Shown one piece after another: positions 27,334-52,607 of a stretch of 56,503 nt of DNA. Both the position numbers and the translations under genes were made by a program. Source of the stretch: a virus (taxonomy: Duplodnaviria > Caudoviricetes). Location: the IMG/VR virus record IMGVR_UViG_3300037478_000558, positions 1 through 56,503 of that record; one strand, written 5' to 3'. The notes under the pieces are model-generated. The model was not told the origin of the DNA and made no database searches. It was given only the letters and a program-made list of their open reading frames with translations. Position 1 is the stretch's first letter. Every line of letters begins with the position of its first letter.

Positions 27334-28434
27334 ATGCCACCCTACCTTGACGAGCGCGCCAAGCGCTGGCGCTGGCGCTGCCGTATCACCCTGCCCGCCG
27401 GCGAAGAGAAGCGGCCGAGCGGTACGCCGAAGCGCAACACCAAGCGAGCAGCAGAAGAGGACGAGCGGCTCACGGTCGAGGCGATGATGCGCGCATCGCT
27501 CTACCCCACCAGACCACCGGCGCCCACGCTCGCCGAATTCGCCCCGCGGTTCCTCGAGTGGTCCGCAGCCCGGGCAAAGGGCGGCGCTGACGGACGCACG
27601 CACACGAACCGAGCAATTGCCCTCCGACTGCATATCCTCCCCGCACTCGGCCGCCTACTGCTCGACCGGATAGGCACCGAGGCTCTCGACCGCTACACCT
27701 CGCAGATATCCGCAACGCCAAGCCTGACCCGCCCAGACCGCACGCTCAGCGCGGGCACCGTTAACCTCCACCTGGCCACGATCTCGGCCATGCTTCGCCT
27801 TGCCGAACGCTGGCAGGTGATCGAGCGCGCGCCTGTGGTCCAGGCGATCCGGCACAAGCCTGCCGTCGTCTGGCTCACCGAGGAGCAGCTCGATGCGATG
27901 ATCGCCGCAGCCCCTACCGACCAGCTCCGCGCCATGATCATCGTTGCCGCCCGCGCCGGCCTGCGCCGCGGTGAGCTCCTGGGCCTGCGCTGGCGCGATA
28001 TCCAGGGCGACACGCTCCTCGTCTCCCAGCAGATCACGCCCACCGGCGCGATCACGAGCACCAAAAGCGGAAAGGTGCGCCCGGTGCCGATTCTCCCCTC
28101 AGTGGGCGATGCGCTGGCGCGCCTGCCCCGCGTCGATGAACTGGTCTTTCCCCATCGCCACGGCGGGGCGCAGCTCGTCCGATCGGCCGACAAGCGGCTC
28201 GCAGTGCTGGCCAAGAGCGCCAAGGTCCATTGCCCCGGCTGGCACGTCCTCCGGCACACCTTCGGCGCGCAACTTGCGCAGCGCGGATGCCCTCTGCCCG
28301 TGATCCAAGAGATGCTCGGACACGCCGATATCCGCACCACGATGATCTACGCGAGCCTCGCACCAACCAGCGCCGCGCACTGGATCCGCGTTCTGGCCAA
28401 CCCACGGCCAACGGAACCCGGACAAGATCGCTAG
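27334..28434 (+). CDS. int: Tyrosine integrase
   Basis: GLRRGELLGLRW (R), TKSGK (K), HVLRH (HxxR), LGH and TMIY (Y). Confidence 0.93.
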   Translation: MPPYLDERAKRWRWRCRITLPAGEEKRPSGTPKRNTKRAAEEDERLTVEAMMRASLYPTRPPAPTLAEFAPRFLEWSAARAKGGADGRTHTNRAIALRLHILPALGRLLLDRIGTEALDRYTSQISATPSLTRPDRTLSAGTVNLHLATISAMLRLAERWQVIERAPVVQAIRHKPAVVWLTEEQLDAMIAAAPTDQLRAMIIVAARAGLRRGELLGLRWRDIQGDTLLVSQQITPTGAITSTKSGKVRPVPILPSVGDALARLPRVDELVFPHRHGGAQLVRSADKRLAVLAKSAKVHCPGWHVLRHTFGAQLAQRGCPLPVIQEMLGHADIRTTMIYASLAPTSAAHWIRVLANPRPTEPGQDR

Positions 28435-42263: not shown

Positions 42264-43064
42264 TCACCTACTGAATACTGGTTGCGGGATCTGAGAAAAC
42301 CTTTCCCCATCCAGAAGAGGAAGCTCGATCTTGATACCGTTGTTGACAAACTGCTTCAGGAAGAATGCCACACCGTGCGGATGTGCAGCATCCCGCACGT
42401 CGCGGAACCACTGCCGGTCAGTTGGCCTGTGCTGTCCACGTCGGCCACTTTCCTCCCCGCCGATAATCCAGTCAAGGCTACGATTCGCCGTGCCACCCAT
42501 GCACCACGGCTCGAAGTCAACGGGACCCAGGGCCGGCTCATACGAGCAAAACCGGACCACGGCACGATAGGCAATCAGCCTCGCTAGGCGCCATTCCGTG
42601 GCCTCGTGGCCCACGGTTACGCCAAGCCAGACGTTGCGCGGGAAGCCATGCTTCACCCATTCCTTGGGCGCCTTCTGGCCGATCATGTTGGGCCGCTTCG
42701 TGAGCAGCAGCCAGTCGAGATTCGTGGTCTTCGAGATCAAGTCCCACACTCGCGCGCGCTGGGCGTCGAGCATGCGATCGATCTCCGGGTTGCGATGCTT
42801 CTCGAAGATGTCTGCCATGGATGCGCAAAACACGCGGTGCCGCTCACCTGCGCGCGCGGCTGCCCGGTCCCACTTGAGCGGCTGCTTCCAATACGCCTCG
42901 GACATCTCCAGACGCGGTGCATCCGGGCCCCAGTGCTCACCGCTGCGCCAACGGCCGTCGAGCTCACGCGCATAGCAGTTATCGCACTCGGCCGAGACCT
43001 CGACGCATCCCCACCACGGATTTAGTGTGTGATGCGTCCATCCGATCTTGCTGAATTCGCCCAC
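42264..43064 (-). CDS. DUF5131 (phage Gp37/Gp68, radical-SAM-like) protein
   Basis: IGWTHHTLNPWWGC..VS.ECDNCYA, VFCASMADIF, LLTKRP, DWIIGGEESG. Confidence 0.92.
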   Translation of the reverse strand: MGEFSKIGWTHHTLNPWWGCVEVSAECDNCYARELDGRWRSGEHWGPDAPRLEMSEAYWKQPLKWDRAAARAGERHRVFCASMADIFEKHRNPEIDRMLDAQRARVWDLISKTTNLDWLLLTKRPNMIGQKAPKEWVKHGFPRNVWLGVTVGHEATEWRLARLIAYRAVVRFCSYEPALGPVDFEPWCMGGTANRSLDWIIGGEESGRRGQHRPTDRQWFRDVRDAAHPHGVAFFLKQFVNNGIKIELPLLDGERFSQIPQPVFSR

Positions 43065-45002: not shown

Positions 45003-46285
45003 AGCTGGTCACCCCGTGGGTACTTGCGCCCCGGGCGCAGTGGCCCGCGCGCGCCCGCCGGCGAGCCGTCGAACTTGTCGAAGTGCTGAAGCAGCGTCTG
45101 CAAGTCGCCGTTCTGCGCCGGCCACTCCCCGCGCTCGTGCATGCGGAACATCCTCCGTGCTCGTGAGAGGCACACAGCGAGCCCGTGAGCCTTCAAAAGC
45201 CTGGAGACCATGCCTCCCTGCTTCGGTCCCCACGTCGGCTTAGAGCCGCCCCTGAACGTCCTGTAGAGCTCATCGAAGGCGCCCACGAATTGCTTGTGCT
45301 CCGCGGCGAGCTTGGCCTCTGCCTCCGTGCGCTCTGCCGACTTCGCCCGGGGCTTGGCACTGGCCTTGCTCCCCGCGGGCACGCGCGCGCTCTTAGAATT
45401 ATTAGAATTTCTATTAAGATCTAGATCTTGAAGATCTGTTTCTTGATCAAGATCAGAGATCAGAGGTAAAGAGATCTGAGAGTTAAACGCGACCCGACCG
45501 AGCGATAGCGAGGGAGTGGTCGACGAGCGAAGCGAGTCATGGATAGAGGGTGTAGAGGGGGGTGTGGGGGGAGACCCGGGGGAAAGGGATTTTTCCTCGC
45601 AACCGGAATTCGCTGAATCGAATCCACTGTCGGATTCTTCCGCGATTACAGGCACTTGCGACGTGTCACGCGATGTAACGCGAGAGCCGTTGCCGTTACG
45701 CGCGGCTTCATCTACCGCGCGTTCATTCTCTAATTCTTCAGCGATTACGAGAACTTCCGGCGTGTAACGTGGTGTAACGCGAGCGCCATTACGGTTACGC
45801 TCGGTTTCGTATGCCGAATTGACGCCAGAATCTCGTTGAACTGTAATGCTGCTAACATTTCCGTCTTTTACCGGGTCCTGTACAGCCCGTTTGCGGACCT
45901 TGACGACATTGGTAATCCGCTCTGCCAGCCTTTCCCGGTCGCGCTGCCGATCGCGGTATTGCCTGGTCCGCATCCGCATCGACGACCCGGTTTTCTGCTG
46001 TGCATAGTGCTCGACCAGGAGCAGGTCACCGCCCTCCACCCAGCGGATATCCCCGTTCCTCTCCAGCTCTCCGATCGCCCGCTGGACAACGGACAACGGC
46101 ATCACCGTTATCGCAGCCACCGCGGGCACTCCGCGCCCCCGGAGCGCCACCACGCCGGCCCCATCGGCCAACCGGGCGAGGAAGAGCAGGAGCGCCCGGG
46201 CATGCCACGAGAGCACCACCCATTCCGGCACGTCGCGAACGAACACCTTGACGTACAGCTCGTTACTGTAATCGCGCGCGCTCAT
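44999..46285 (-). CDS. Phage replication initiator protein
   Basis: N-terminal wHTH-like region, R.RQYRDRQR, low-complexity linker, C-terminal helical domain; upstream of DnaC-like gene. Confidence 0.75.
   Translation of the reverse strand: MSARDYSNELYVKVFVRDVPEWVVLSWHARALLLFLARLADGAGVVALRGRGVPAVAAITVMPLSVVQRAIGELERNGDIRWVEGGDLLLVEHYAQQKTGSSMRMRTRQYRDRQRDRERLAERITNVVKVRKRAVQDPVKDGNVSSITVQRDSGVNSAYETERNRNGARVTPRYTPEVLVIAEELENERAVDEAARNGNGSRVTSRDTSQVPVIAEESDSGFDSANSGCEEKSLSPGSPPTPPSTPSIHDSLRSSTTPSLSLGRVAFNSQISLPLISDLDQETDLQDLDLNRNSNNSKSARVPAGSKASAKPRAKSAERTEAEAKLAAEHKQFVGAFDELYRTFRGGSKPTWGPKQGGMVSRLLKAHGLAVCLSRARRMFRMHERGEWPAQNGDLQTLLQHFDKFDGSPAGARGPLRPGRKYPRGDQL
45390..45805. other. Putative replication origin within initiator gene
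   Basis: AT-rich patch with 7 GATC in 45418-45477 next to two imperfect repeats bearing GTAACG/CGTTAC. Confidence 0.5.
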
Positions 46286-46503
46286 CGCCACCCTCCCGAA
46301 CCGACAAAATCATCGCTGAGGAGCTGAAGGGCGAGCCGGTGCCGGTCCCCGGGCACGCGCCCCCCCATCCAGCCATGCACGGTCGCCGGCTGCACGCCAA
46401 ACACCCTGGCGAGCACGGCCGGCTCGATTCCTCGGTCCCGCATCCATTGCTCGAGCCGCGTCCTGGCCGGCCCGCTGTGCTCCGCTTCTTGCTGCTGTTC
46501 CAT
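46282..46503 (-). CDS. Cro-like HTH transcriptional regulator
   Basis: LARVFGVQPATVHGWMGG.RVP HTH. Confidence 0.8.
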   Translation of the reverse strand: MEQQQEAEHSGPARTRLEQWMRDRGIEPAVLARVFGVQPATVHGWMGGRVPGDRHRLALQLLSDDFVGSGGWR

Positions 46504-46504
46504 T

Positions 46505-46649
46505 CCTCGACCCCTACCGGTCATCGGTGATTCTGTCTACCAGTCATCGGTGTTGCGCAGGTCATAACCTGTTGACGATACTATCCATTCGGCTCATATG
46601 CACCGGATGAGTGGTAGACAGATTATCGGATGACTGATAGGGGTCGAGG
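46505..46649. promoter_or_regulatory. Divergent promoter cassette with ~48-bp imperfect inverted arms
   Basis: 46505-46552 is nearly the reverse complement of 46601-46649; each arm has TAGACA-N17-TAGGGG and two GATGA(C/G) boxes. Confidence 0.8.
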
Positions 46650-46650
46650 C

Positions 46651-47667
46651 ATGGAGCTACTCACCACCTCGGCTGCATCGGTTTGGCGCCGGTGCCCACG
46701 CGAATATTTCTATTCCTACGTGCTCTGGAGGCGCCTGATCGCCACTTCTGAAGCACTCCGCATCGGCACGTTGATCCACGCCGGATTGGAGGCGTGGTGG
46801 AAGTCATACATGTTCAGCGTGCTTGCCGACCACCGCCCAGAGATGCCGCTGGAGCGTGCCCTTGCGGCCCTGGATGCGTGCGCCGATGATCTCGATGACC
46901 GCAATGCGATCGATGAGTACACGCTCGCGTCATGCAGGGTGCTCATCGCCGGATATCACGCCCGCTGGTCGTCTGAGATGGCCGAAATCGAAGTCCTCGG
47001 CGTCGAGAGCAGCTTCAGGGCGCCGATGGTCAACCCGGCCACCGGCCACCCGTCGCGCACCTTCGAGATCGGGGGCAAGCTCGATGCGCTGATCCTGCGC
47101 CGGGGCCGCGTCGAGATCGTCGAGCACAAGACCACCACCGAGGCGCTCGACGGGGATTCGGACTACTGGCCCCGTCTGCGCATGGACTCCCAGATCTCAA
47201 TGTATCACGACGGCGCCGCGCGCCTGGGCCACGTGCCCAGATCGTGCACCTATGACGTGATCCGCAAGCCCACGATACGGCCGTACAAGGCTACGCCGGA
47301 GCACTTGCGCAAATACACAAAGGCAGGAACCCTCTATGCCCAACAGCGCGCGGAGGATGAGACCGTCGCCGAGTACGCCGCCCGGGTGGCGGATGACGTG
47401 CTCGCGAACCCCGAGCGGTATTACCGCCGTGCATCCATCGTGCGCCTGGATCCTGAGATGGCCGGCCACCGCGCGAACGTGTGGATGGTCGGAGAGGAGA
47501 TCAAGCTCGCGCGAAAGCTCGACTACTACCGCCAAGATCCTGATTCATGTCGGAGGTTTAACCGCATGTGCGCCTACTTCGACGTGTGCACAGGGGCTGA
47601 GTCGATCGAATCCCCCAGGTTCGGCACGGTCGAGGCGCACCCGGAGCTGGCCGAGGCGATTGATTAA
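46651..47667 (+). CDS. PD-(D/E)XK exonuclease (RecE/Cas4-like)
   Basis: RCPR.Y, GTLIHAGLE, GKLD, IVEHKTT, Q..MY and C-terminal C...C....C. Confidence 0.85.
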   Translation: MELLTTSAASVWRRCPREYFYSYVLWRRLIATSEALRIGTLIHAGLEAWWKSYMFSVLADHRPEMPLERALAALDACADDLDDRNAIDEYTLASCRVLIAGYHARWSSEMAEIEVLGVESSFRAPMVNPATGHPSRTFEIGGKLDALILRRGRVEIVEHKTTTEALDGDSDYWPRLRMDSQISMYHDGAARLGHVPRSCTYDVIRKPTIRPYKATPEHLRKYTKAGTLYAQQRAEDETVAEYAARVADDVLANPERYYRRASIVRLDPEMAGHRANVWMVGEEIKLARKLDYYRQDPDSCRRFNRMCAYFDVCTGAESIESPRFGTVEAHPELAEAID

Positions 47668-47737
47668 TCCGGTGCATGTTTTCGCTTGACTTGGCGGTCG
47701 CAAGTTCTTCACGATCGCGTGAAAGGAGCCACCTTCC

Positions 47738-49303
47738 ATGAGCCGCAAAATGATCTGGAGCGATCAGCAGATCGCGATATTCGACTGGTTCAAGACCGCC
47801 GAGAAGCGCAACCTCGTGGTGCGCGCCCGGGCCGGCACCGGCAAGTCCACATCGATCATCGAGGGAATCCGCCACGCCCCCGAGGATCAGGTGCTGGTGA
47901 CGAGCTTCTCCAAGCTGTCGGTCACCGATCTGGAGAACAAGATCCGCGACACCGGATCGCGGGGGCAGGCGAAGACGCTCCACGGCGTGGGGTTCGCCTG
48001 CATCCGCCGATACTGGGATCGCGTGTCGGTCGCGCGCCCGGTTAGCGACCGTGCCGACCAGCTCACCGAGCAGGTCGTCGGGCAGGTGCCGATCACGATC
48101 AAGCGGCTGGTATCCAAGCTGCACACCAAGGGCCGCGAGATGGCCCCGTTCGCCCGCGAGCTGGGCGATCTGACTGCGCTGGCCTACGAGTTCGACTGCG
48201 CGCCTGACGAGGAGTGGGCCGAGGATGGCTATGGGCTCGACTTCGTCGAGTCGGCGGCCCTGCGCGCGATGGAGCTTGCGGCGACACAGCAGACGACGGC
48301 GATCGACTTCGCCGACATGCTGTATCTCCCCGTTCGCAATCGCTGGATGCGCAAGGAGTGGGATCTCGTGGTGGTCGATGAGGCGCAGGATATGAGCGCC
48401 ACCCAGCTCTTGCTCGCGCTCGGCGTGGCCCGCGGGCGGATCGTGCTGGTCGGTGACGATCGCCAGGCCATCTACGGCTTCCGGGGTGCCGACTCTGGAT
48501 CGCTCGACCGGCTCAAGGGCGAGCTTCAGGCCGACGAACTCGGCCTCAACTGCACCTATCGGTGCGGTACCGCGATCGTCGATCTGGCTCGCGCGCTCGT
48601 GCCGGACTACATCGCCCACGAGAGCAACGGCACCGGGCTTGTGCGCTCTGCTCCGGCCTCGACGCTGGTCAACAGCGTGGAGATGGGCGACTTTCTCCTG
48701 AGCCGAAAGAATGCCCCGCTGGTGACCGCTGCGCTGAAAATCCTGCGCGCGGGCAAGCGCTGCAAGATCCAGGGCCGCGATATCGGACAGGGCTTGATCG
48801 CTCTCGTGCGCAACCTGGCCAAGGGCAAGGCCAGGGACTCGATGCCGGCATTCCTGGCGAAGCTGACGACCTGGGAGGAGCGCGAGATCAGGCGCGCCTG
48901 GAAAGGGTCCAGAAGCGACGCGATCGCCGCTTCGCGCGAGGAGCAGATCAAGGAGCGCGCCGAGACGCTCGTCGCTCTCGCCGATGGCATGAGCAGTGTG
49001 CGTGAACTGATCGCGAGGATCGAGGATCTTTTCTCTGACGACGATCGCCAGCCGCACGTCACCGCTTCGAGCATACACCGCGCCAAGGGGCTCGAAGCTG
49101 ATCGCGTCTTCGTGCTCCGCGACACCCTGTATCCGCGTATGCCCTGCCAGTGCGGACACTGGCACAACGGCAAGGGCTGCAACCGCTGCTCGTGCGCCAC
49201 GTACCGCGTGCCTGATTCGCGGATGCAGGAGGAGGAGAACCTCGAGTACGTGGCGATCACCCGGGCTCGCCACGAGCTGGTGTGGCTCAACGGCGACCTA
49301 TAG
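47738..49303 (+). CDS. UvrD/Rep-like SF1 helicase
   Basis: ARAGTGKS, VDEAQD, VGDDRQAIYGFRGA, YRC, SIHRAKGLEA and YVAITRA. Confidence 0.92.
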   Translation: MSRKMIWSDQQIAIFDWFKTAEKRNLVVRARAGTGKSTSIIEGIRHAPEDQVLVTSFSKLSVTDLENKIRDTGSRGQAKTLHGVGFACIRRYWDRVSVARPVSDRADQLTEQVVGQVPITIKRLVSKLHTKGREMAPFARELGDLTALAYEFDCAPDEEWAEDGYGLDFVESAALRAMELAATQQTTAIDFADMLYLPVRNRWMRKEWDLVVVDEAQDMSATQLLLALGVARGRIVLVGDDRQAIYGFRGADSGSLDRLKGELQADELGLNCTYRCGTAIVDLARALVPDYIAHESNGTGLVRSAPASTLVNSVEMGDFLLSRKNAPLVTAALKILRAGKRCKIQGRDIGQGLIALVRNLAKGKARDSMPAFLAKLTTWEEREIRRAWKGSRSDAIAASREEQIKERAETLVALADGMSSVRELIARIEDLFSDDDRQPHVTASSIHRAKGLEADRVFVLRDTLYPRMPCQCGHWHNGKGCNRCSCATYRVPDSRMQEEENLEYVAITRARHELVWLNGDL

Positions 49304-49343
49304 CGCTTTCCCGGTCGGTGCGCGGGCAATCAGCACCGGTTTT

Positions 49344-49449
49344 GCCGTGGCATGGACAGCAAGAGATCGCGTTGCGTGAGCACGCGAAGGGCGTCGTTCT
49401 CCGTCCTGGGTCTCTCTTGCGCTCGGGTTCGAGCCCCGGGCACGGCACC
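49344..49449 (+). ncRNA. tRNA-like structured RNA (acceptor and T arm, no anticodon arm)
   Basis: GCCGTG/CACGGC-A-CC acceptor, CTCGGG-TTCGAGC-CCCGGG T arm, GCAAGAGA/TCTCTTGC helix enclosing two hairpins. Confidence 0.65.
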
Positions 49450-49476
49450 GCGAAAAACTTGGCGAAGGAGACCACC

Positions 49477-49770
49477 ATGGCGACGAGACGACGACGAGCG
49501 GCCGGCCTCGAAGTGCTCGGCAGCCCCCGGCGCGCCCGGGGCATCCACGACGACGAGATCAGCCCGCGCAACCTGGATCGGTTGGTCGAGGGCAAGCGCA
49601 CCGAGTGCGCACATTATCAGGGGTGCATGAACTACGCATCCGCTCTCGATTGGCCGCAATTCCATTGCAGGCAGTGCACCCAATTTGTGGAGCGCGACGA
49701 CCACGACGCGATGATCGAGGATCGCGTTTTTGCCCGAATCGGTAATCGATTCTTGGAGAACTCAATATGA
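49477..49770 (+). CDS. Small Cys4 protein (C..Y..C......W..F.C..C)
   Basis: RBS AAGGAG; Cys pattern resembles small proteins common in myxobacteria (recalled, not searched). Confidence 0.65.
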   Translation: MATRRRRAAGLEVLGSPRRARGIHDDEISPRNLDRLVEGKRTECAHYQGCMNYASALDWPQFHCRQCTQFVERDDHDAMIEDRVFARIGNRFLENSI

Positions 49771-50696
49771 AGCTGAGCGACATCAAACCGGGCCGCCTGA
49801 AAAAGGCCAACCGCCTGATCTTCTACGGCCCGCACGGCGTGGGCAAAACCACGCTTGCGGCCAATATGGACAACCCGATCTGGATCGACGCGGAGGACAG
49901 CTCTGGCGAGGTCGAGGTTGCCCGCTACCCCTTCCGGGCCGAGCCCGGGGGTCACGTGCCCAAGAGCTACGAGGAGATCCTCGGTGCGATCGATGCGCTG
50001 ACCACGGAAGAGCACTCGTTCACCGAGGTCGTGATCGACACAGCCGATCGTGTCGAGACGCTCATCTGGGATCACGTGTGCGCCCGCGATAGCCGCAAGG
50101 GCAAGCTCCTGACGAGCGTCGAGAGCTACGGCTACGGCAAGGGCTATGTCGTGGCCCTGGACGAGTGGCGCCTGCTCTGCGCTCGCTTGGACGAACTCCG
50201 CACCAAGCGCGACATGACGATCGTGATCCTCGGGCACTCCGGGGTGAAGACCTTCAAGAACCCGTCAGGAGAGGACTACGACCGGTACCAGCTCCGGCTA
50301 CAGGAGAAGGCCGCGGGATGGCTCGGCGAGTGGGCTGACGTGATCGGCTTCTGCTCGTTCGAGGAAGGCGCGTCGAAGGGCGAGAACGAGAATCGCGCGA
50401 AGGGGTGGAGCACGGGCAAGCGCCTCATCCACTTCGCCCGTGGGGCCGCCCACGACGCCAAGTCGCGCCTCTCGCTGCCCGACCTGGTCGAGATGCCCGA
50501 CACCGACCCGTTCGAGCCCCTCCGGGCCGCGCTGGCCACGTCCAAGGATCCCGGCGAGCTTGTCGGGCTGATCAACGCGGAGTTGGCGCGCATCGGCGAT
50601 GATGAGCTGACCAAGAAGGTCAAGGCCGCAGTTGCCATCGCCGGCAGCGATGCCGTTCGGCTGATGCGCTTCCTGAACTCGCTCCGGTCGCGGTAG
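49767..50696 (+). CDS. Sak4-like AAA_24 ATPase (single-strand annealing recombinase)
   Basis: YGPHGVGKTT, VVIDT.D, GYGKGY, EWADVIGF and AKSR. Confidence 0.85.
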   Translation: MKLSDIKPGRLKKANRLIFYGPHGVGKTTLAANMDNPIWIDAEDSSGEVEVARYPFRAEPGGHVPKSYEEILGAIDALTTEEHSFTEVVIDTADRVETLIWDHVCARDSRKGKLLTSVESYGYGKGYVVALDEWRLLCARLDELRTKRDMTIVILGHSGVKTFKNPSGEDYDRYQLRLQEKAAGWLGEWADVIGFCSFEEGASKGENENRAKGWSTGKRLIHFARGAAHDAKSRLSLPDLVEMPDTDPFEPLRAALATSKDPGELVGLINAELARIGDDELTKKVKAAVAIAGSDAVRLMRFLNSLRSR

Positions 50697-50701
50697 AAAC
50701 G

Positions 50702-51499
50702 ATGCCACCCATGAAGCTCACAGTAGATTCCATCCTCGCCCTGAACCCATGCGACGACTGGCCGCGTGAGCGGATCGAGGAGGTTTTCGGTAAGCGTTAC
50801 GATGCCACTTTCGCCGATCTCCTCGCCGATAAGCGCGTGCCATTCACCGATGCCCTGTGGCTGTTCTGCGCCGTGCTGAGCCGAGACGGTAACGATCGCC
50901 TCTTGCGCTGGTTCGCCTGCTGGTGCGCCTGGCAGGTAAGCCACCTGATGGAGGATGATCGCAGCGTCAACGCCGTTCGTGTGGCCCAGCGCTTTGCTCG
51001 TGGGCAAGCGACCGAGGAAGAACGGGCCGCCGGCTGGGCCGCCGGCTGGGCCGCCGCCGGCGAGGCCGCCTGGGCCGCCGCCAGGGCCGCCGCCGGCGAG
51101 GCCGCCAGAGCCGCCGCCGGCGAGGCCGCCGGCTGGGCCGCCGGCTGGGCCGCCGCCGGCGAGGCCGCCGGCTGGGCCGCCGCCGGCGAGGCCGCCTGGG
51201 CCGCCAGGGCCGCCGCCGGCGAGGCCGCCAGAGCCGCTGCCGGCGAGGCCGCCTGGGCCGCCGCCAGGGCCGCCGCCGGCGAGGCCGCCAGAGCCGCCGC
51301 CGGCGAGGCCGCCGGCTGGGCCGCCGCCGGCTGGGCCGCCGCCGGCGAGGCCGCCGGCTGGGCCGCCGCCGGCTGGGCCGCCGCCGGCGAGGCCGCCGGC
51401 TGGGCCGCCGCCGGCGAGGCCGCCTGGGCCGCCGCCTGGGCAAATCAGCGCAGGATGATGGTTCGCATTGCGGCGCGCCTCGAACGCATGACGCGATAG
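50702..51499 (+). CDS. Imm5-like helical protein with long AAGW/AAGE/AAR low-complexity repeat
   Basis: LRWFACWCA.QV.HLM.D.RS..A..VA.RFA.G.AT.EE followed by ~140 aa of repeats. Confidence 0.75.
   Translation: MPPMKLTVDSILALNPCDDWPRERIEEVFGKRYDATFADLLADKRVPFTDALWLFCAVLSRDGNDRLLRWFACWCAWQVSHLMEDDRSVNAVRVAQRFARGQATEEERAAGWAAGWAAAGEAAWAAARAAAGEAARAAAGEAAGWAAGWAAAGEAAGWAAAGEAAWAARAAAGEAARAAAGEAAWAAARAAAGEAARAAAGEAAGWAAAGWAAAGEAAGWAAAGWAAAGEAAGWAAAGEAAWAAAWANQRRMMVRIAARLERMTR
51025..51441 (+). repeat. Coding tandem repeat of GCC-GCC-(GGC)-TGG/GAG/AGG units
   Basis: Directly visible 9-15 bp units. Confidence 0.92.
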
Positions 51500-51531
51500 A
51501 TTCACCACCACACCAAGAGAGGGATATCAGT

Positions 51532-52110
51532 ATGGAAGCAGGCAAATACCGCGCACGCGCAGTCGAGCGCACCGACCCCGAGACCGGCGAGACCGCCAAG
51601 GTCTTCTTTGGGTTCTCCTCGCAGAAGGAAACGCCACAGTGCATCGTGCACTTCGAGATCGTGGAAGACGGCGACGATCTTGGCCGTGTGGTGCCCTGGT
51701 TCGGCTACTTCACCGCTAATACCAGGGAGCGCACGATCCAGAGCCTCCGGCACTGCGGTTTCCGCGGCCGCGATCTGTCGGCGATCAATGACGAGCCCCT
51801 CGACCGGGAGGTGCAACTCGTGATCGAAATGGAAGAACAAGAGGACGAAGCGGGCAACCGCTATGATCGCCCCAAGGTGCAGTGGGTGAACGCCCTCGGG
51901 GGCGGCTTCGTCTCGATGAAAAAGAAGATGGATCAGGGCGCGCTGCGCCGCTTCGCCGCGGAGATGCAGCGCTACATGGACGCCCCACCCGATCGCGCCA
52001 GCGTCCCCAGGGGCAGCTCCAGCGGCCGTAGCAGCCAGGGCCGGCGCAGCACCGCACCAGTGCGCCGTGACGACGTACCGCCACCGTCGGACGACGATAT
52101 CCCGTTCTAG
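51532..52110 (+). CDS. Phage single-stranded DNA-binding protein (DUF669-like)
   Basis: AGKYRAR OB-fold start; C-terminal DDDIPF tail; downstream of Sak4-like gene. Confidence 0.85.
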   Translation: MEAGKYRARAVERTDPETGETAKVFFGFSSQKETPQCIVHFEIVEDGDDLGRVVPWFGYFTANTRERTIQSLRHCGFRGRDLSAINDEPLDREVQLVIEMEEQEDEAGNRYDRPKVQWVNALGGGFVSMKKKMDQGALRRFAAEMQRYMDAPPDRASVPRGSSSGRSSQGRRSTAPVRRDDVPPPSDDDIPF

Positions 52111-52607
52111 CGGCGGGCCGTGATCAGGATGCGCATGCGCTGGATCGCTGCCAGATCGTCGCGCACGCGCACCTGAATGCTGTAACCGGGTAGAAGCTCT
52201 ACCGGTGAGCCCAATACGTCTGGCCAGGTCACGAACGCGGTGAGCCGGTCTGGTCCAGCAGCGGTTCCGATCACCGCTGTGCCGACCCCGGAGAAGATCT
52301 CATCGTTCCGCTTCCACGGGCTTCCGCGGGTGAAGTCGATGATCTCATCATTCGAGACATCGAACACGCCAGCGGTGAGCCCATTCGTCAGTGCCGCGAT
52401 ACCGCCGAAATTTCCCCACTGGATTCCAGTGTTCACGATATTGATCGTGAACCCATGCCAGGCGATCGGGCGCGATGTCTGATTGACGTAGGCGTAGACC
52501 TGCTCCTCGATGGAGCCGTCCACGTTCATATCGCGCAGATCTGCCGGTGGCGTGCCGACAATGTGAAGCAGAAACCCATTCGATGAGCGTCCAGGTGCGA
52601 TCGTCAT
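52107..52607 (-). CDS. Virion-associated hypothetical protein
   Basis: MNVDGS..NFGGIAALTNGL..VRDDL pattern; follows BppU-like gene. Confidence 0.55.
   Translation of the reverse strand: MTIAPGRSSNGFLLHIVGTPPADLRDMNVDGSIEEQVYAYVNQTSRPIAWHGFTINIVNTGIQWGNFGGIAALTNGLTAGVFDVSNDEIIDFTRGSPWKRNDEIFSGVGTAVIGTAAGPDRLTAFVTWPDVLGSPVELLPGYSIQVRVRDDLAAIQRMRILITARR

What the first reader, a model, noticed from the sequence alone, without database searches (positions are those of the whole stretch)
49304..49476. tRNA/tmRNA-like RNA lacking an anticodon arm inside the recombination operon
Seen: acceptor GCCGTG/CACGGC with discriminator A then CC; T arm CTCGGG-TTCGAGC-CCCGGG (6+6 = 12-bp minihelix, as in tRNA 7+5); stemless D-like loop GCATGGACA containing GG. 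In place of the anticodon arm, an 8-bp helix (GCAAGAGA/TCTCTTGC) encloses a GTGA (GNRA) hairpin and an AGGGCG/CGTCCT hairpin. This matches the topology of the tmRNA tRNA-like domain but is ~106 nt, has no tag ORF and no G3-U70. Inference: a tRNA mimic (decoy for SmpB, anticodon nucleases or other tRNA-sensing defences) or an RNase P/Z processing signal.
Basis: partly seen in the sequence, partly recalled or inferred. Interest (0 to 1): 0.78.

Follow-up and report, generated by a model that had tools for sequence, protein, structure and literature searches.

The report
Orphan tRNA-like fold between phage genes
A 106-base stretch between two genes of an uncultured phage can fold like the top half of a tRNA with no anticodon arm; it may be a cutting signal for tRNA-processing enzymes, but nothing here shows that it works.

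Summary
The sequence features are real. At 49344-49449 (+) there is a 6-bp acceptor-like stem and a 6-bp stem closing a canonical T-loop (UUCGAGC). An A-CC tail follows the stem and a U precedes it. A 72-nt three-way junction sits where the D and anticodon arms would be. The element fills the 173-nt gap between a UvrD-like helicase and a 97-aa Cys-rich ORF in a complete 56.5-kb temperate phage. The combined acceptor plus T-arm motif is expected 0.06 times per window by chance. Support beyond that is thin. ARAGORN and Rfam find nothing. The fold z-score is only -1.97. The nearest-neighbour ensemble prefers an alternative to the T-arm (probability 0.005). No homologue exists outside a near-identical lineage. 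The only substitution inside the element (A39G) keeps its pair as G-U. The low divergence cannot be read as selection, because divergence is patchy in the flanking coding sequence too. It is not a tRNA or a tmRNA, it is not like any tRNA 3' end in the genomes searched, and it is not a coding extension with known relatives. My best reading (about 0.4) is a tRNA-like element inside the operon transcript that host RNase P and 3'-end enzymes recognise. The decoy idea is untested.

The parts
49311..49343 (+). GC-rich hairpin (CGGTGC 49316-49321 with GCACCG 49333-49338, 11-nt loop; CCGGT/ACCGG is an alternative register) followed by TTTT, directly upstream of the element. Possibly a weak terminator, or a 3'-end stabiliser of the helicase mRNA.
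   Evidence: Read. Part of it is in the MFE. It is not listed by the terminator scan, which asks for 5 T in 8. The T run varies in relatives: 49341 T>C and 49342 T>C.
49344..49349 (+). Acceptor-like stem, 5' strand GCCGTG, preceded by U at -1.
   Evidence: pair probabilities 0.97-1.0.
49350..49358 (+). Stemless D-like loop GCATGGACA containing GG.
   Evidence: In the MFE, UGG pairs instead with CCG of the T-stem 3' strand.
49359..49420 (+). 8-bp helix (GCAAGAGA/TCTCTTGC) closing a three-way junction. It holds a GTGA-loop hairpin (49367-49387) and an 8-nt-loop hairpin (49388-49407). This domain takes the place of the D and anticodon arms.
   Evidence: Pair probabilities are 0.86-1.0, except U29-A39 at 0.49. 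Position 49382 (A39) is G in runs X3, X5 and X6, which gives U-G.
49422..49440 (+). T-arm-like hairpin CTCGGG-TTCGAGC-CCCGGG. The loop fits T54-T55-C56-R57-A58, with G53-C61 closing it (numbering recalled).
   Evidence: It is the only such motif in the window. The nearest-neighbour ensemble does not favour it (0.005 per pair).
49441..49449 (+). Acceptor-like stem, 3' strand CACGGC, then discriminator A and CC. The next base is G, so CCA is not fully encoded.
49464..49479 (+). Shine-Dalgarno GAAGGAG (49464-49470) and the ATG (49477) of the 97-aa Cys-rich ORF, which ends at 49770 and overlaps the Sak4-like gene start (ATGA).
   Evidence: Relatives are called from the same Met (P0124, P0126, P0127).

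Best explanation
The element is a structured RNA made as part of the exonuclease-helicase-p97-Sak4 operon transcript. Its top half copies the acceptor/T-arm minihelix of a tRNA.

Most likely the host's tRNA-processing enzymes recognise it. RNase P would cut between U49343 and G49344. That would leave the helicase mRNA ending in the upstream hairpin. It would leave the downstream p97-Sak4 mRNA either starting with the folded element or freed from it by 3'-end processing after A49447 or CC. On this reading the element works like a tRNA embedded in an mRNA: a punctuation mark that uncouples the stability or translation of the two halves of the operon. It may also release a roughly 106-nt tRNA-like RNA.

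What is shown: the sequence features, the intercistronic sense-strand position, and the absence of an anticodon arm. What is inferred: transcription through the site, the T-arm fold, every cleavage, and any effect on expression.
For: - The composite acceptor plus T-arm motif (12 stacked bp, loop TTCGAGC, G-C closing pair) occurs once in the window, against 0.06 expected.
- It lies on the sense strand, in the largest gap of an otherwise tightly packed same-strand operon (gaps or overlaps of 70, 173, -4, 5 and 32 nt).
- No sigma-70-like promoter was found in 46000-52500, so co-transcription is plausible.
- The RNase P substrate determinants, as I recall them, can all be read: U at -1, G+1 paired with C, a 12-bp acceptor/T stack, a T-loop, and a 3' purine-C-C.
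- All 34 proposed pairs are standard (2 G-U, one bulge). The non-T stems have ensemble probability of 0.86 or more, apart from one pair at 0.49.
- The one substitution seen inside the element in relatives (49382 A>G, in 3 of the 3 laid runs that cover it) turns U-A into U-G.
- Co-transcripts of an mRNA and a tRNA cut by RNase P are known in E. coli (secG-leuU; PMC2241853, title and abstract seen in the listing).
- tRNA-like 't-elements' shape mRNA ends in plant mitochondria (PMC1920247, title and abstract start seen in the listing).
Against: - ARAGORN finds nothing with default settings, with introns, or in tmRNA mode. Rfam finds nothing even at E<=10 on 801 bases.
- The T stem is not the predicted fold. 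Each of its pairs has probability 0.005, and the MFE is 4 kcal/mol better.
- The fold z-score is only -1.97.
- No homologue was found in 88 related loci, in 151 Polyangiaceae-family genomes (only noise), or next to distant p97 relatives.
- There is no covariation.
- The low divergence of the element in relatives is not evidence of constraint. In the same 4650-nt contig, 49696-49850 (coding) has 0 differences, while 49199-49300 has 15 and 49533-49695 has 14. This looks like recombination patchwork.
- No RNA data exist.
- The first stage screened very many windows, so some chance instances are expected.
Confidence: 0.4

Rival explanations
1. Chance resemblance. The gap is an ordinary GC-rich intercistronic spacer or 5' UTR whose hairpins have a generic role or none (mRNA stability, a weak terminator, spacing of the ribosome-binding site). 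The T-loop and acceptor likeness is coincidental.
For: - Fold z is -1.97 for the element and +0.29 for the whole gap. The minus strand folds almost as well (z -1.68).
- The thermodynamic ensemble rejects the T arm.
- No detector and no family matches.
- No homologue and no covariation.
- At 90% of ARAGORN's threshold, a different 84-nt call at this site appears along with 5 calls inside coding regions, which is noise level.
- 6% of shuffled windows carry the composite motif somewhere, and the first stage read very many windows.
Against: The 6% is for both strands of all 56.5 kb. Landing on the sense strand of a 173-nt gap, with A-CC after the stem and U before it, is much rarer. All 34 pairs are standard. 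In about 600 kb of related loci, most of the other hits of the same scan lay at a real tRNA or in tRNA-like clusters (L054, L060, L055, L005). One 51-nt hit in L002 was not looked into.
Confidence: 0.3
2. Remnant of a tRNA gene. The acceptor and T arm survive while the D and anticodon region was replaced or scrambled. It is now without function, or kept only as a transcript-end structure. A phage attachment-site copy of a host tRNA 3' end is a variant of this reading.
For: The T-loop is canonical and the stack is 12 bp. The phage is temperate, with an integrase at 27334-28434. Other phages of the helicase family carry odd tRNA genes near these modules (L060, L005, L055).
Against: - The site is 21 kb from the integrase.
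- Both acceptor strands are present, whereas an attP core holds only the 3' part.
- The 20-mer from the T-loop to the discriminator has no match in any tRNA gene of 185,579 species' genomes (1 hit, in a CRISPR spacer).
- A 23-mer with up to 3 mismatches hits 201 genomes of the order of the one candidate host lineage no more often than its reversed control (26 against about 28 by my count of the table).
- A decaying gene should show mismatches in its stems. None is seen, and the inserted domain is itself a clean three-way junction.
Confidence: 0.13
3. Trans-acting tRNA mimic. The excised roughly 106-nt RNA, CCA-tailed, binds a host tRNA-recognising protein such as SmpB, an anticodon nuclease, a tRNA-sensing defence system, a synthetase or EF-Tu, and acts as a decoy or inhibitor.
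For: Same structural evidence as the best explanation. The topology resembles the tmRNA tRNA-like domain, with GG 5-6 nt after the acceptor (a recalled comparison). It lies among early recombination genes, where counter-defence genes often sit (general knowledge).
Against: Without an anticodon loop it cannot be a substrate-type decoy for anticodon nucleases. It has no G3-U70 for alanylation. Rfam tmRNA models and ARAGORN -m give nothing. No partner gene was found in the phage. Two literature searches for phage tRNA mimics or decoys listed no such RNA (listings only).
Confidence: 0.1
4. The gap is protein-coding, as an N-terminal extension of p97. The frame is open from GTG 49282, and one gene caller started at TTG 49417 to give 117 aa.
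For: The frame of p97 is open through the whole gap. GC by codon position in that frame is 0.65/0.56/0.74, close to p97 itself at 0.63/0.47/0.73. A 117-aa call exists in the protein collection (P0123, P0125).
Against: - A strong GAAGGAG lies 6 nt before ATG 49477, and no such site precedes TTG 49417.
- Three relatives are called from the same Met at 97 aa.
- The 65-aa extension has no relative among 5.8 billion proteins apart from its own lineage's 117-aa call.
- The four variable sites in the gap fall on codon positions 3, 1, 2 and 2, which is not a coding pattern (my arithmetic).
Confidence: 0.04

Closest known systems
tRNA-like domain (TLD) of tmRNA
   Same: The order of parts is the same: acceptor stem, a stemless loop with GG a few bases after it, a long helix where the anticodon arm would be, then a T arm stacked on the acceptor. 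The tmRNA details are recalled.
   Different: About 106 nt rather than about 360. No tag reading frame and no pseudoknots. Position 3 is C-G, not G-U. Stems are 6+6 rather than 7+5 bp. No Rfam tmRNA match at E<=10 and no ARAGORN tmRNA call.
tRNA genes co-transcribed with protein genes and released by RNase P (E. coli secG-leuU; PMC2241853, listing)
   Same: A tRNA-shaped module inside a polycistronic mRNA, on the sense strand, next to a hairpin plus T-run.
   Different: Those are true tRNAs with anticodons that serve in translation. This element has no D or anticodon arm, and no processing has been shown.
t-elements of plant mitochondrial mRNAs (PMC1920247, listing) and the mascRNA of MALAT1 (recalled)
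   Same: tRNA-like folds that are not tRNAs. They are used as RNase P/Z cleavage signals to make mRNA or lncRNA ends.
   Different: Those are organellar or eukaryotic systems with different enzymes. No bacterial or phage counterpart appeared in my four literature searches (listings only).
Canonical tRNA (Rfam RF00005)
   Same: T-loop consensus, G-C closing pair, 12-bp acceptor/T stack, purine discriminator and CC.
   Different: No D stem and no 7-nt anticodon loop; 72 nt of other structure instead. Not detected by ARAGORN or Rfam.

Membership tests
tRNA | Cloverleaf with D arm and a 5-bp anticodon stem closing a 7-nt loop | tested here: not met
   ARAGORN finds 0 with default settings and 0 with introns. 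Rfam RF00005 gives no match at E<=10. By reading, 49350-49421 holds an 8-bp helix with a GNRA hairpin and an 8-nt-loop hairpin.
tRNA | T arm with loop T-T-C-R-A-N-N closed by G-C, stacked on the acceptor to give 12 bp | tested here: met
   Read. Found by my motif scan as the only instance in the window. Caveat: ensemble probability of the T stem is 0.005.
tmRNA | Tag-peptide reading frame with a resume codon, between the two halves of the tRNA-like domain | tested here: not met
   Only 72 nt lie between the halves, and all of it is in helices. ARAGORN -m finds 0. Rfam tmRNA families give no match.
tmRNA | G3-U70 alanine identity pair | tested here: not met
   The third acceptor pair is C49346-G49444.
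Bacterial Y RNA (YrlA-type tRNA mimic) | Match to the Rfam Y RNA families, and a nearby Ro/Rsr gene | tested here: not met
   No Rfam match of any family. No Ro-type (TROVE) domain among the 31 window proteins scanned with Pfam. Not every small ORF was scanned.
RNase P substrate (functional class, not a sequence family) | Cleavage by RNase P 5' of G+1 | not testable with these tools
   Only the sequence determinants can be read (U-1, G+1:C, 12-bp stack, T-loop, ACC). No RNA run holds the region.
Phage attP copy of a host tRNA 3' end | Identity of the T-loop-to-3'-end segment to a bacterial tRNA gene | tested here: not met
   The 20-mer has 1 hit in the genome collection, in a CRISPR spacer and not in a tRNA. 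The 23-mer with up to 3 mismatches gives 26 hits in 201 genomes against about 28 for the reversed control (the tally includes one unpublished genome, G602).

The most novel reading that the evidence does not exclude
A phage carries, inside its recombination operon, an anticodon-less tRNA mimic: an acceptor/T-arm minihelix on a three-way-junction body. Host RNase P and 3'-end enzymes excise it and it receives a CCA tail. It then either punctuates the operon mRNA, as a bacterial-virus counterpart of plant mitochondrial t-elements and mascRNA, or acts in trans on a host protein that reads the tRNA elbow and acceptor. It would be the first member of an undescribed class. Other odd acceptor/T-arm RNAs seen here in unrelated phages (L055 1431-1531; L060 407-594) might be cousins.
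Probability: 0.25. Interest if true: 0.7.

Novelty: new variant of a known kind. Interest (0 to 1): 0.38.

Why it matters
If it is real, it would show that DNA phages use tRNA shape without tRNA function. The use could be to cut and balance their own operon transcripts with the host's tRNA-maturation enzymes, or to engage tRNA-binding host factors. That would add a bacterial-virus case to a strategy known from plant RNA viruses, plant mitochondria and mammalian lncRNAs. It would also point to a class of RNAs that standard tRNA finders and Rfam miss.

If it is chance, the case is a useful caution. In 65% GC phage DNA, a perfect T-loop hairpin next to a 6-bp complement arises in about 6% of 56-kb windows.

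Tried and rejected
- **Homologues by synteny.** Sak4 relatives (8 loci) have the exonuclease directly followed by Sak4, with no helicase, element or p97. Helicase relatives (80 loci from alignment A1) have none of the neighbouring genes and no match to model R1. The best non-self hit was 23 bits, on a tRNA-like minihelix in L060.
- **Single-protein scans in IMG/VR.** The helicase and p97 gave nothing.
- **p97 alignment in JGI metagenomes.** Nothing.
- **Exact patterns.** The 28-mer gave 0 in IMG/VR. The 20-mer gave 0 in IMG/VR and 0 in metagenomes. A gapped D-loop plus T-loop pattern gave one chance hit inside a coding region.
- **Cultured phages.** BLAST of the region and tblastn of p97 found no match. 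The terminase has only relatives of 34% identity or less among those listed.
- **Sequencing runs.** 7 DNA holders and no RNA holder were listed. The four runs laid are all relatives about 95% or more alike, so they offer almost no variation.
- **Conservation as evidence of selection.** Rejected because divergence is patchy.
- **CRISPR spacer as evidence of a second, diverged copy.** Rejected. Outside the 20-nt core the flanks align no better than random 12-mers (p=0.53), and none of the other 33 spacers matches the window.
- **-1 frameshift fusing the helicase to the open frame.** Rejected by reading. There is no slippery site before the stop, and the helicase ends where its homologues end.
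- **Relaxed ARAGORN call at 49366-49449.** Noise.

Full report
**What the window is**

The window is a complete 56,503-bp virus record with direct terminal repeats and 61-69% GC. PHROGs and Pfam scans identify the following:
- large terminase, portal, major head protein, tail sheath and baseplate genes on the minus strand (194-21882);
- a tyrosine integrase (27334-28434, +);
- a plus-strand replication and recombination block.

The block reads: PD-(D/E)XK exonuclease 46630-47667, UvrD-like helicase 47738-49303, a 97-aa Cys-rich ORF (p97) 49477-49770, a Sak4-like AAA_24 protein 49767-50696, then two more ORFs.

It is a temperate, contractile-tailed phage with no cultured close relative. The terminase is at most 34% identical to the cultured phages listed.

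**The observation**

That start has a GAAGGAG ribosome-binding site 6 nt upstream.

In RNA terms the element is:
- G1-G6 paired with C98-C103;
- a 9-nt loop with GG;
- an 8-bp helix closing a three-way junction of two hairpins;
- one unpaired G;
- a 6-bp stem with the loop UUCGAGC;
- then A-C-C.

It has 34 pairs, all standard (2 G-U, one bulged U). U precedes G1.

**Is it more than chance?**

- A T-arm motif alone is not unusual: 1 seen against 0.37 expected from Markov-2 shuffles.
- T arm plus an abutting acceptor strand with a partner 50-260 nt upstream is rarer: 1 seen against 0.06 expected, and 6% of 300 shuffles had at least one. That figure covers both strands of the whole window. The real site is on the sense strand of a 173-nt gap and also has A-CC after it and U before it.
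- In about 600 kb of related phage loci the same scan hit 14 times (beside the copy of the window itself) in five loci. These were a true tRNA-Met (L054), tRNA-like clusters (L060, L055, L005) and one 51-nt hit in L002 that I did not look into.

On the other side:
- The fold is only marginally better than shuffles: z -1.97, with 11 of 200 as good. The minus strand gives z -1.68 and the whole gap +0.29.
- The ensemble keeps every stem except the T stem. The hairpin GCUCG(GGUU)CGAGC, plus pairing of the loop's UGG with CCG, is 4 kcal/mol better. Each T-stem pair therefore gets a probability of 0.005. Energy models ignore T-loop tertiary structure, so this does not kill the reading, but it is a real weakness.

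**Detectors**

- ARAGORN finds no tRNA or tmRNA with default settings, with introns allowed, or in tmRNA mode.
- At 90% of its threshold it calls a different 84-nt cloverleaf, 49366-49449, with a 4-base 'anticodon'. Five calls inside coding regions appear at the same threshold, and 118 calls appear at 80%. That is noise.
- Rfam 15 gives no match at gathering scores over the window, and none at E<=10 over 49000-49800.

**Relatives**

- *Synteny.* Five of the eight Sak4 relatives found in IMG/VR (L002-L006, at 39-53% identity) have the exonuclease directly followed by Sak4. In this phage the helicase, the element and p97 therefore sit as an insertion between them. Eighty loci with helicase relatives (27-51% identity) have none of the neighbours.
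It finds only noise in 151 genomes of the Polyangiaceae family and nothing next to distant p97 relatives.
- *p97.* It has just two clusters of relatives among 5.8 billion proteins: its own 98-100% lineage and one 77% relative, P0124. The DNA of P0124 could not be reached. That contig is the single most useful missing item.

**Near relatives in sequencing runs**

Seven DNA runs hold part of the region, and none is on record as RNA. I laid four of them.

A 4650-nt contig of X3 spans 49150-49850 with 31 differences. Only two fall in the gap: 49342 T>C in the T run, and 49382 A>G. X5 adds 49341 T>C. X6 and X7 add 49475 C>T. Inside the 106-nt element, 49382 is the only variable site. It is G in all three laid runs that cover it. 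It is position 39, the partner of U29, so the pair is kept as U-G.

I first read the low divergence as constraint and then rejected that reading. The same contig shows:

| Stretch | Differences |
|---|---|
| 49199-49300 | 15 |
| 49301-49532 | 2 |
| 49533-49695 | 14 |
| 49696-49850 (pure coding sequence) | 0 |

This patchwork is what recombination between close phages gives. The quiet stretch over the element therefore proves nothing.

**Tests of the rival readings**

1. *Host tRNA 3' end or attP copy.* The 20-mer from the T-loop to the discriminator has no match in IMG/VR or JGI metagenomes and a single match in 185,579 species' genomes. That match is not a tRNA. It lies in a spacer of a 35-repeat CRISPR array in a Polyangiaceae MAG. 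A 23-mer with up to 3 mismatches hits 201 genomes of that order 26 times, against about 28 times for its reversed control. No tRNA in the genomes searched ends like this element.
2. *The spacer as a diverged second copy.* The spacer's flanks align to the window no better than random 12-mers (p=0.53), and none of the other 33 spacers matches the window. A bare 20-nt identity is about what chance gives in 596 Gb. Its landing in a spacer is odd, and I leave it as an unexplained aside and a weak host lead.
3. *Coding extension of p97.* The frame is open from 49282, and its base composition by codon position is not clearly non-coding. But the extension has no relative in the protein collection beyond its own lineage's 117-aa call. 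The ribosome-binding site points to ATG 49477. The four variable sites fall on codon positions 3, 1, 2 and 2.
4. *Partner genes.* None of the 31 proteins scanned with Pfam or the 43 scanned with PHROGs is an RNA ligase, CCA-adding enzyme, Ro, SmpB, reverse transcriptase or synthetase.

**Most likely mechanism**

The element sits on the sense strand inside an operon with no promoter-like site nearby. It offers the features that bacterial RNase P reads in a pre-tRNA: U at -1, a G+1:C pair, a 12-bp coaxial stack capped by a T-loop, and purine-C-C at the 3' side (the determinants are recalled; the sequence is).

I therefore favour, at about 0.4, a tRNA-like punctuation element. RNase P would cut at 49343/49344. 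The helicase mRNA would end at the upstream hairpin. The p97-Sak4 mRNA would begin with, or be trimmed free of, the folded element.

Known parallels are tRNAs co-transcribed with protein genes in E. coli (PMC2241853) and plant mitochondrial t-elements (PMC1920247). I saw both only as titles and abstract openings in the search listings.

The trans-acting decoy idea is a sub-case that I cannot support. Without an anticodon loop the RNA cannot bait anticodon nucleases. It also lacks the alanine identity pair of tmRNA.

Chance resemblance (0.3) and a tRNA-gene remnant (0.13) remain live.

**Comparison and novelty**

It is not a member of the tRNA, tmRNA or Y RNA families (see the membership tests). 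It works like, or at least looks like, the tRNA-like domain of tmRNA and the t-element or mascRNA class of processing signals.

Four literature searches (listings only, no paper read in full) listed no phage or bacterial anticodon-less tRNA-like element of this kind. That is weak evidence of novelty. Supplementary files were not consulted.

I rate it a possible new variant of a known kind, an orphan at present, with moderate-to-low interest until a diverged homologue or RNA ends are in hand.

Noticed in passing
L060 330-830 (IMGVR_UViG_3300046791_000324), upstream of its helicase: A TTGACA-N17-TAAAAT promoter is followed by three tRNA-like genes that default ARAGORN misses. (a) 407-594 is called tRNA-Arg(TCG) only when introns are allowed, with a 103-nt insert at 33/34, a good D arm and an encoded ACCA. 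(b) 601-703 is a minihelix-ended RNA with T-loop TTCGTTT and ACC. (c) 712-810 scores 43 bits on Rfam tRNA with 36 unaligned nt; ARAGORN -i calls it tRNA-Val(CAC) with a 5-nt insert and a long extra arm. A 103-nt insert is too short for a group I intron.
   Followed up: partly
L055 1390-1535 and 1762-1808 (IMGVR_UViG_3300010401_000640): A TTGACA-N17-TAAAGT promoter is followed by a 101-nt RNA with a 7-bp acceptor, a T arm (TTCGAAG) and two internal hairpins but no D arm (fold z -2.53). No ARAGORN call with default settings or with introns allowed. A 47-nt mini tRNA-like-domain lookalike lies 230 nt downstream (Rfam tmRNA 12.4 bits, E 0.31).
   Followed up: partly
L005 5340-5555 (IMGVR_UViG_3300045049_000394), after the homologue of the window's 192-aa ORF: Three copies of GGTTCGACTCC lie within 215 nt of intergenic DNA. 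The last copy closes an 85-nt acceptor/T-arm fold ending GCCA that overlaps the next ATG. ARAGORN with introns calls a tRNA-Ala(GGC) with a 131-nt insert.
   Followed up: partly
L090 2430-2466 (Polyangiaceae MAG contig, CRISPR array 63-2573) versus window 49428-49447: One spacer of a 35-repeat array shares an exact 20-mer with the element, from the T-loop to the discriminator. It is the only hit of that 20-mer in 185,579 genomes. The flanks are not similar (p=0.53) and no other spacer matches the phage. It is either chance or a weak host lead to Myxococcota.
   Followed up: yes
window 47738-49770 versus L002-L006: Relatives have the exonuclease directly followed by Sak4. In this phage the helicase, the element and p97 lie between them as an inserted module. 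The helicase family elsewhere has different neighbours.
   Followed up: yes
window 49150-49850 in runs X3, X5, X6, X7: Divergence from close relatives is patchy: blocks of 9-15% alternate with blocks of 0-1%, also within coding sequence. This points to frequent recombination among co-occurring sediment phages.
   Followed up: partly
window 49477-49770 (p97): A 97-aa protein with a C-x5-C...C-x2-C pattern and no Pfam or PHROG match. Its only relatives among 5.8 billion proteins are its own lineage and one 77% relative. Weak matches to the Cys-rich core occur in 3 of 401 Myxococcota genomes sampled.
   Followed up: partly
Helicase homologues P0007, P0105; L074 2501-4831 and L075 2201-4531: Some helicase relatives are 800-870 aa long and carry intein or homing-endonuclease Pfam domains. 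In L074 and L075 the match is split by about 880 nt. These are probably intein-containing helicases.
   Followed up: no
window 42264-43064 (-): A DUF5131 protein (Pfam E 3.6e-56; phrog_2045) lies next to a ParB-like/methyltransferase gene and a DNA methyltransferase gene.
   Followed up: no
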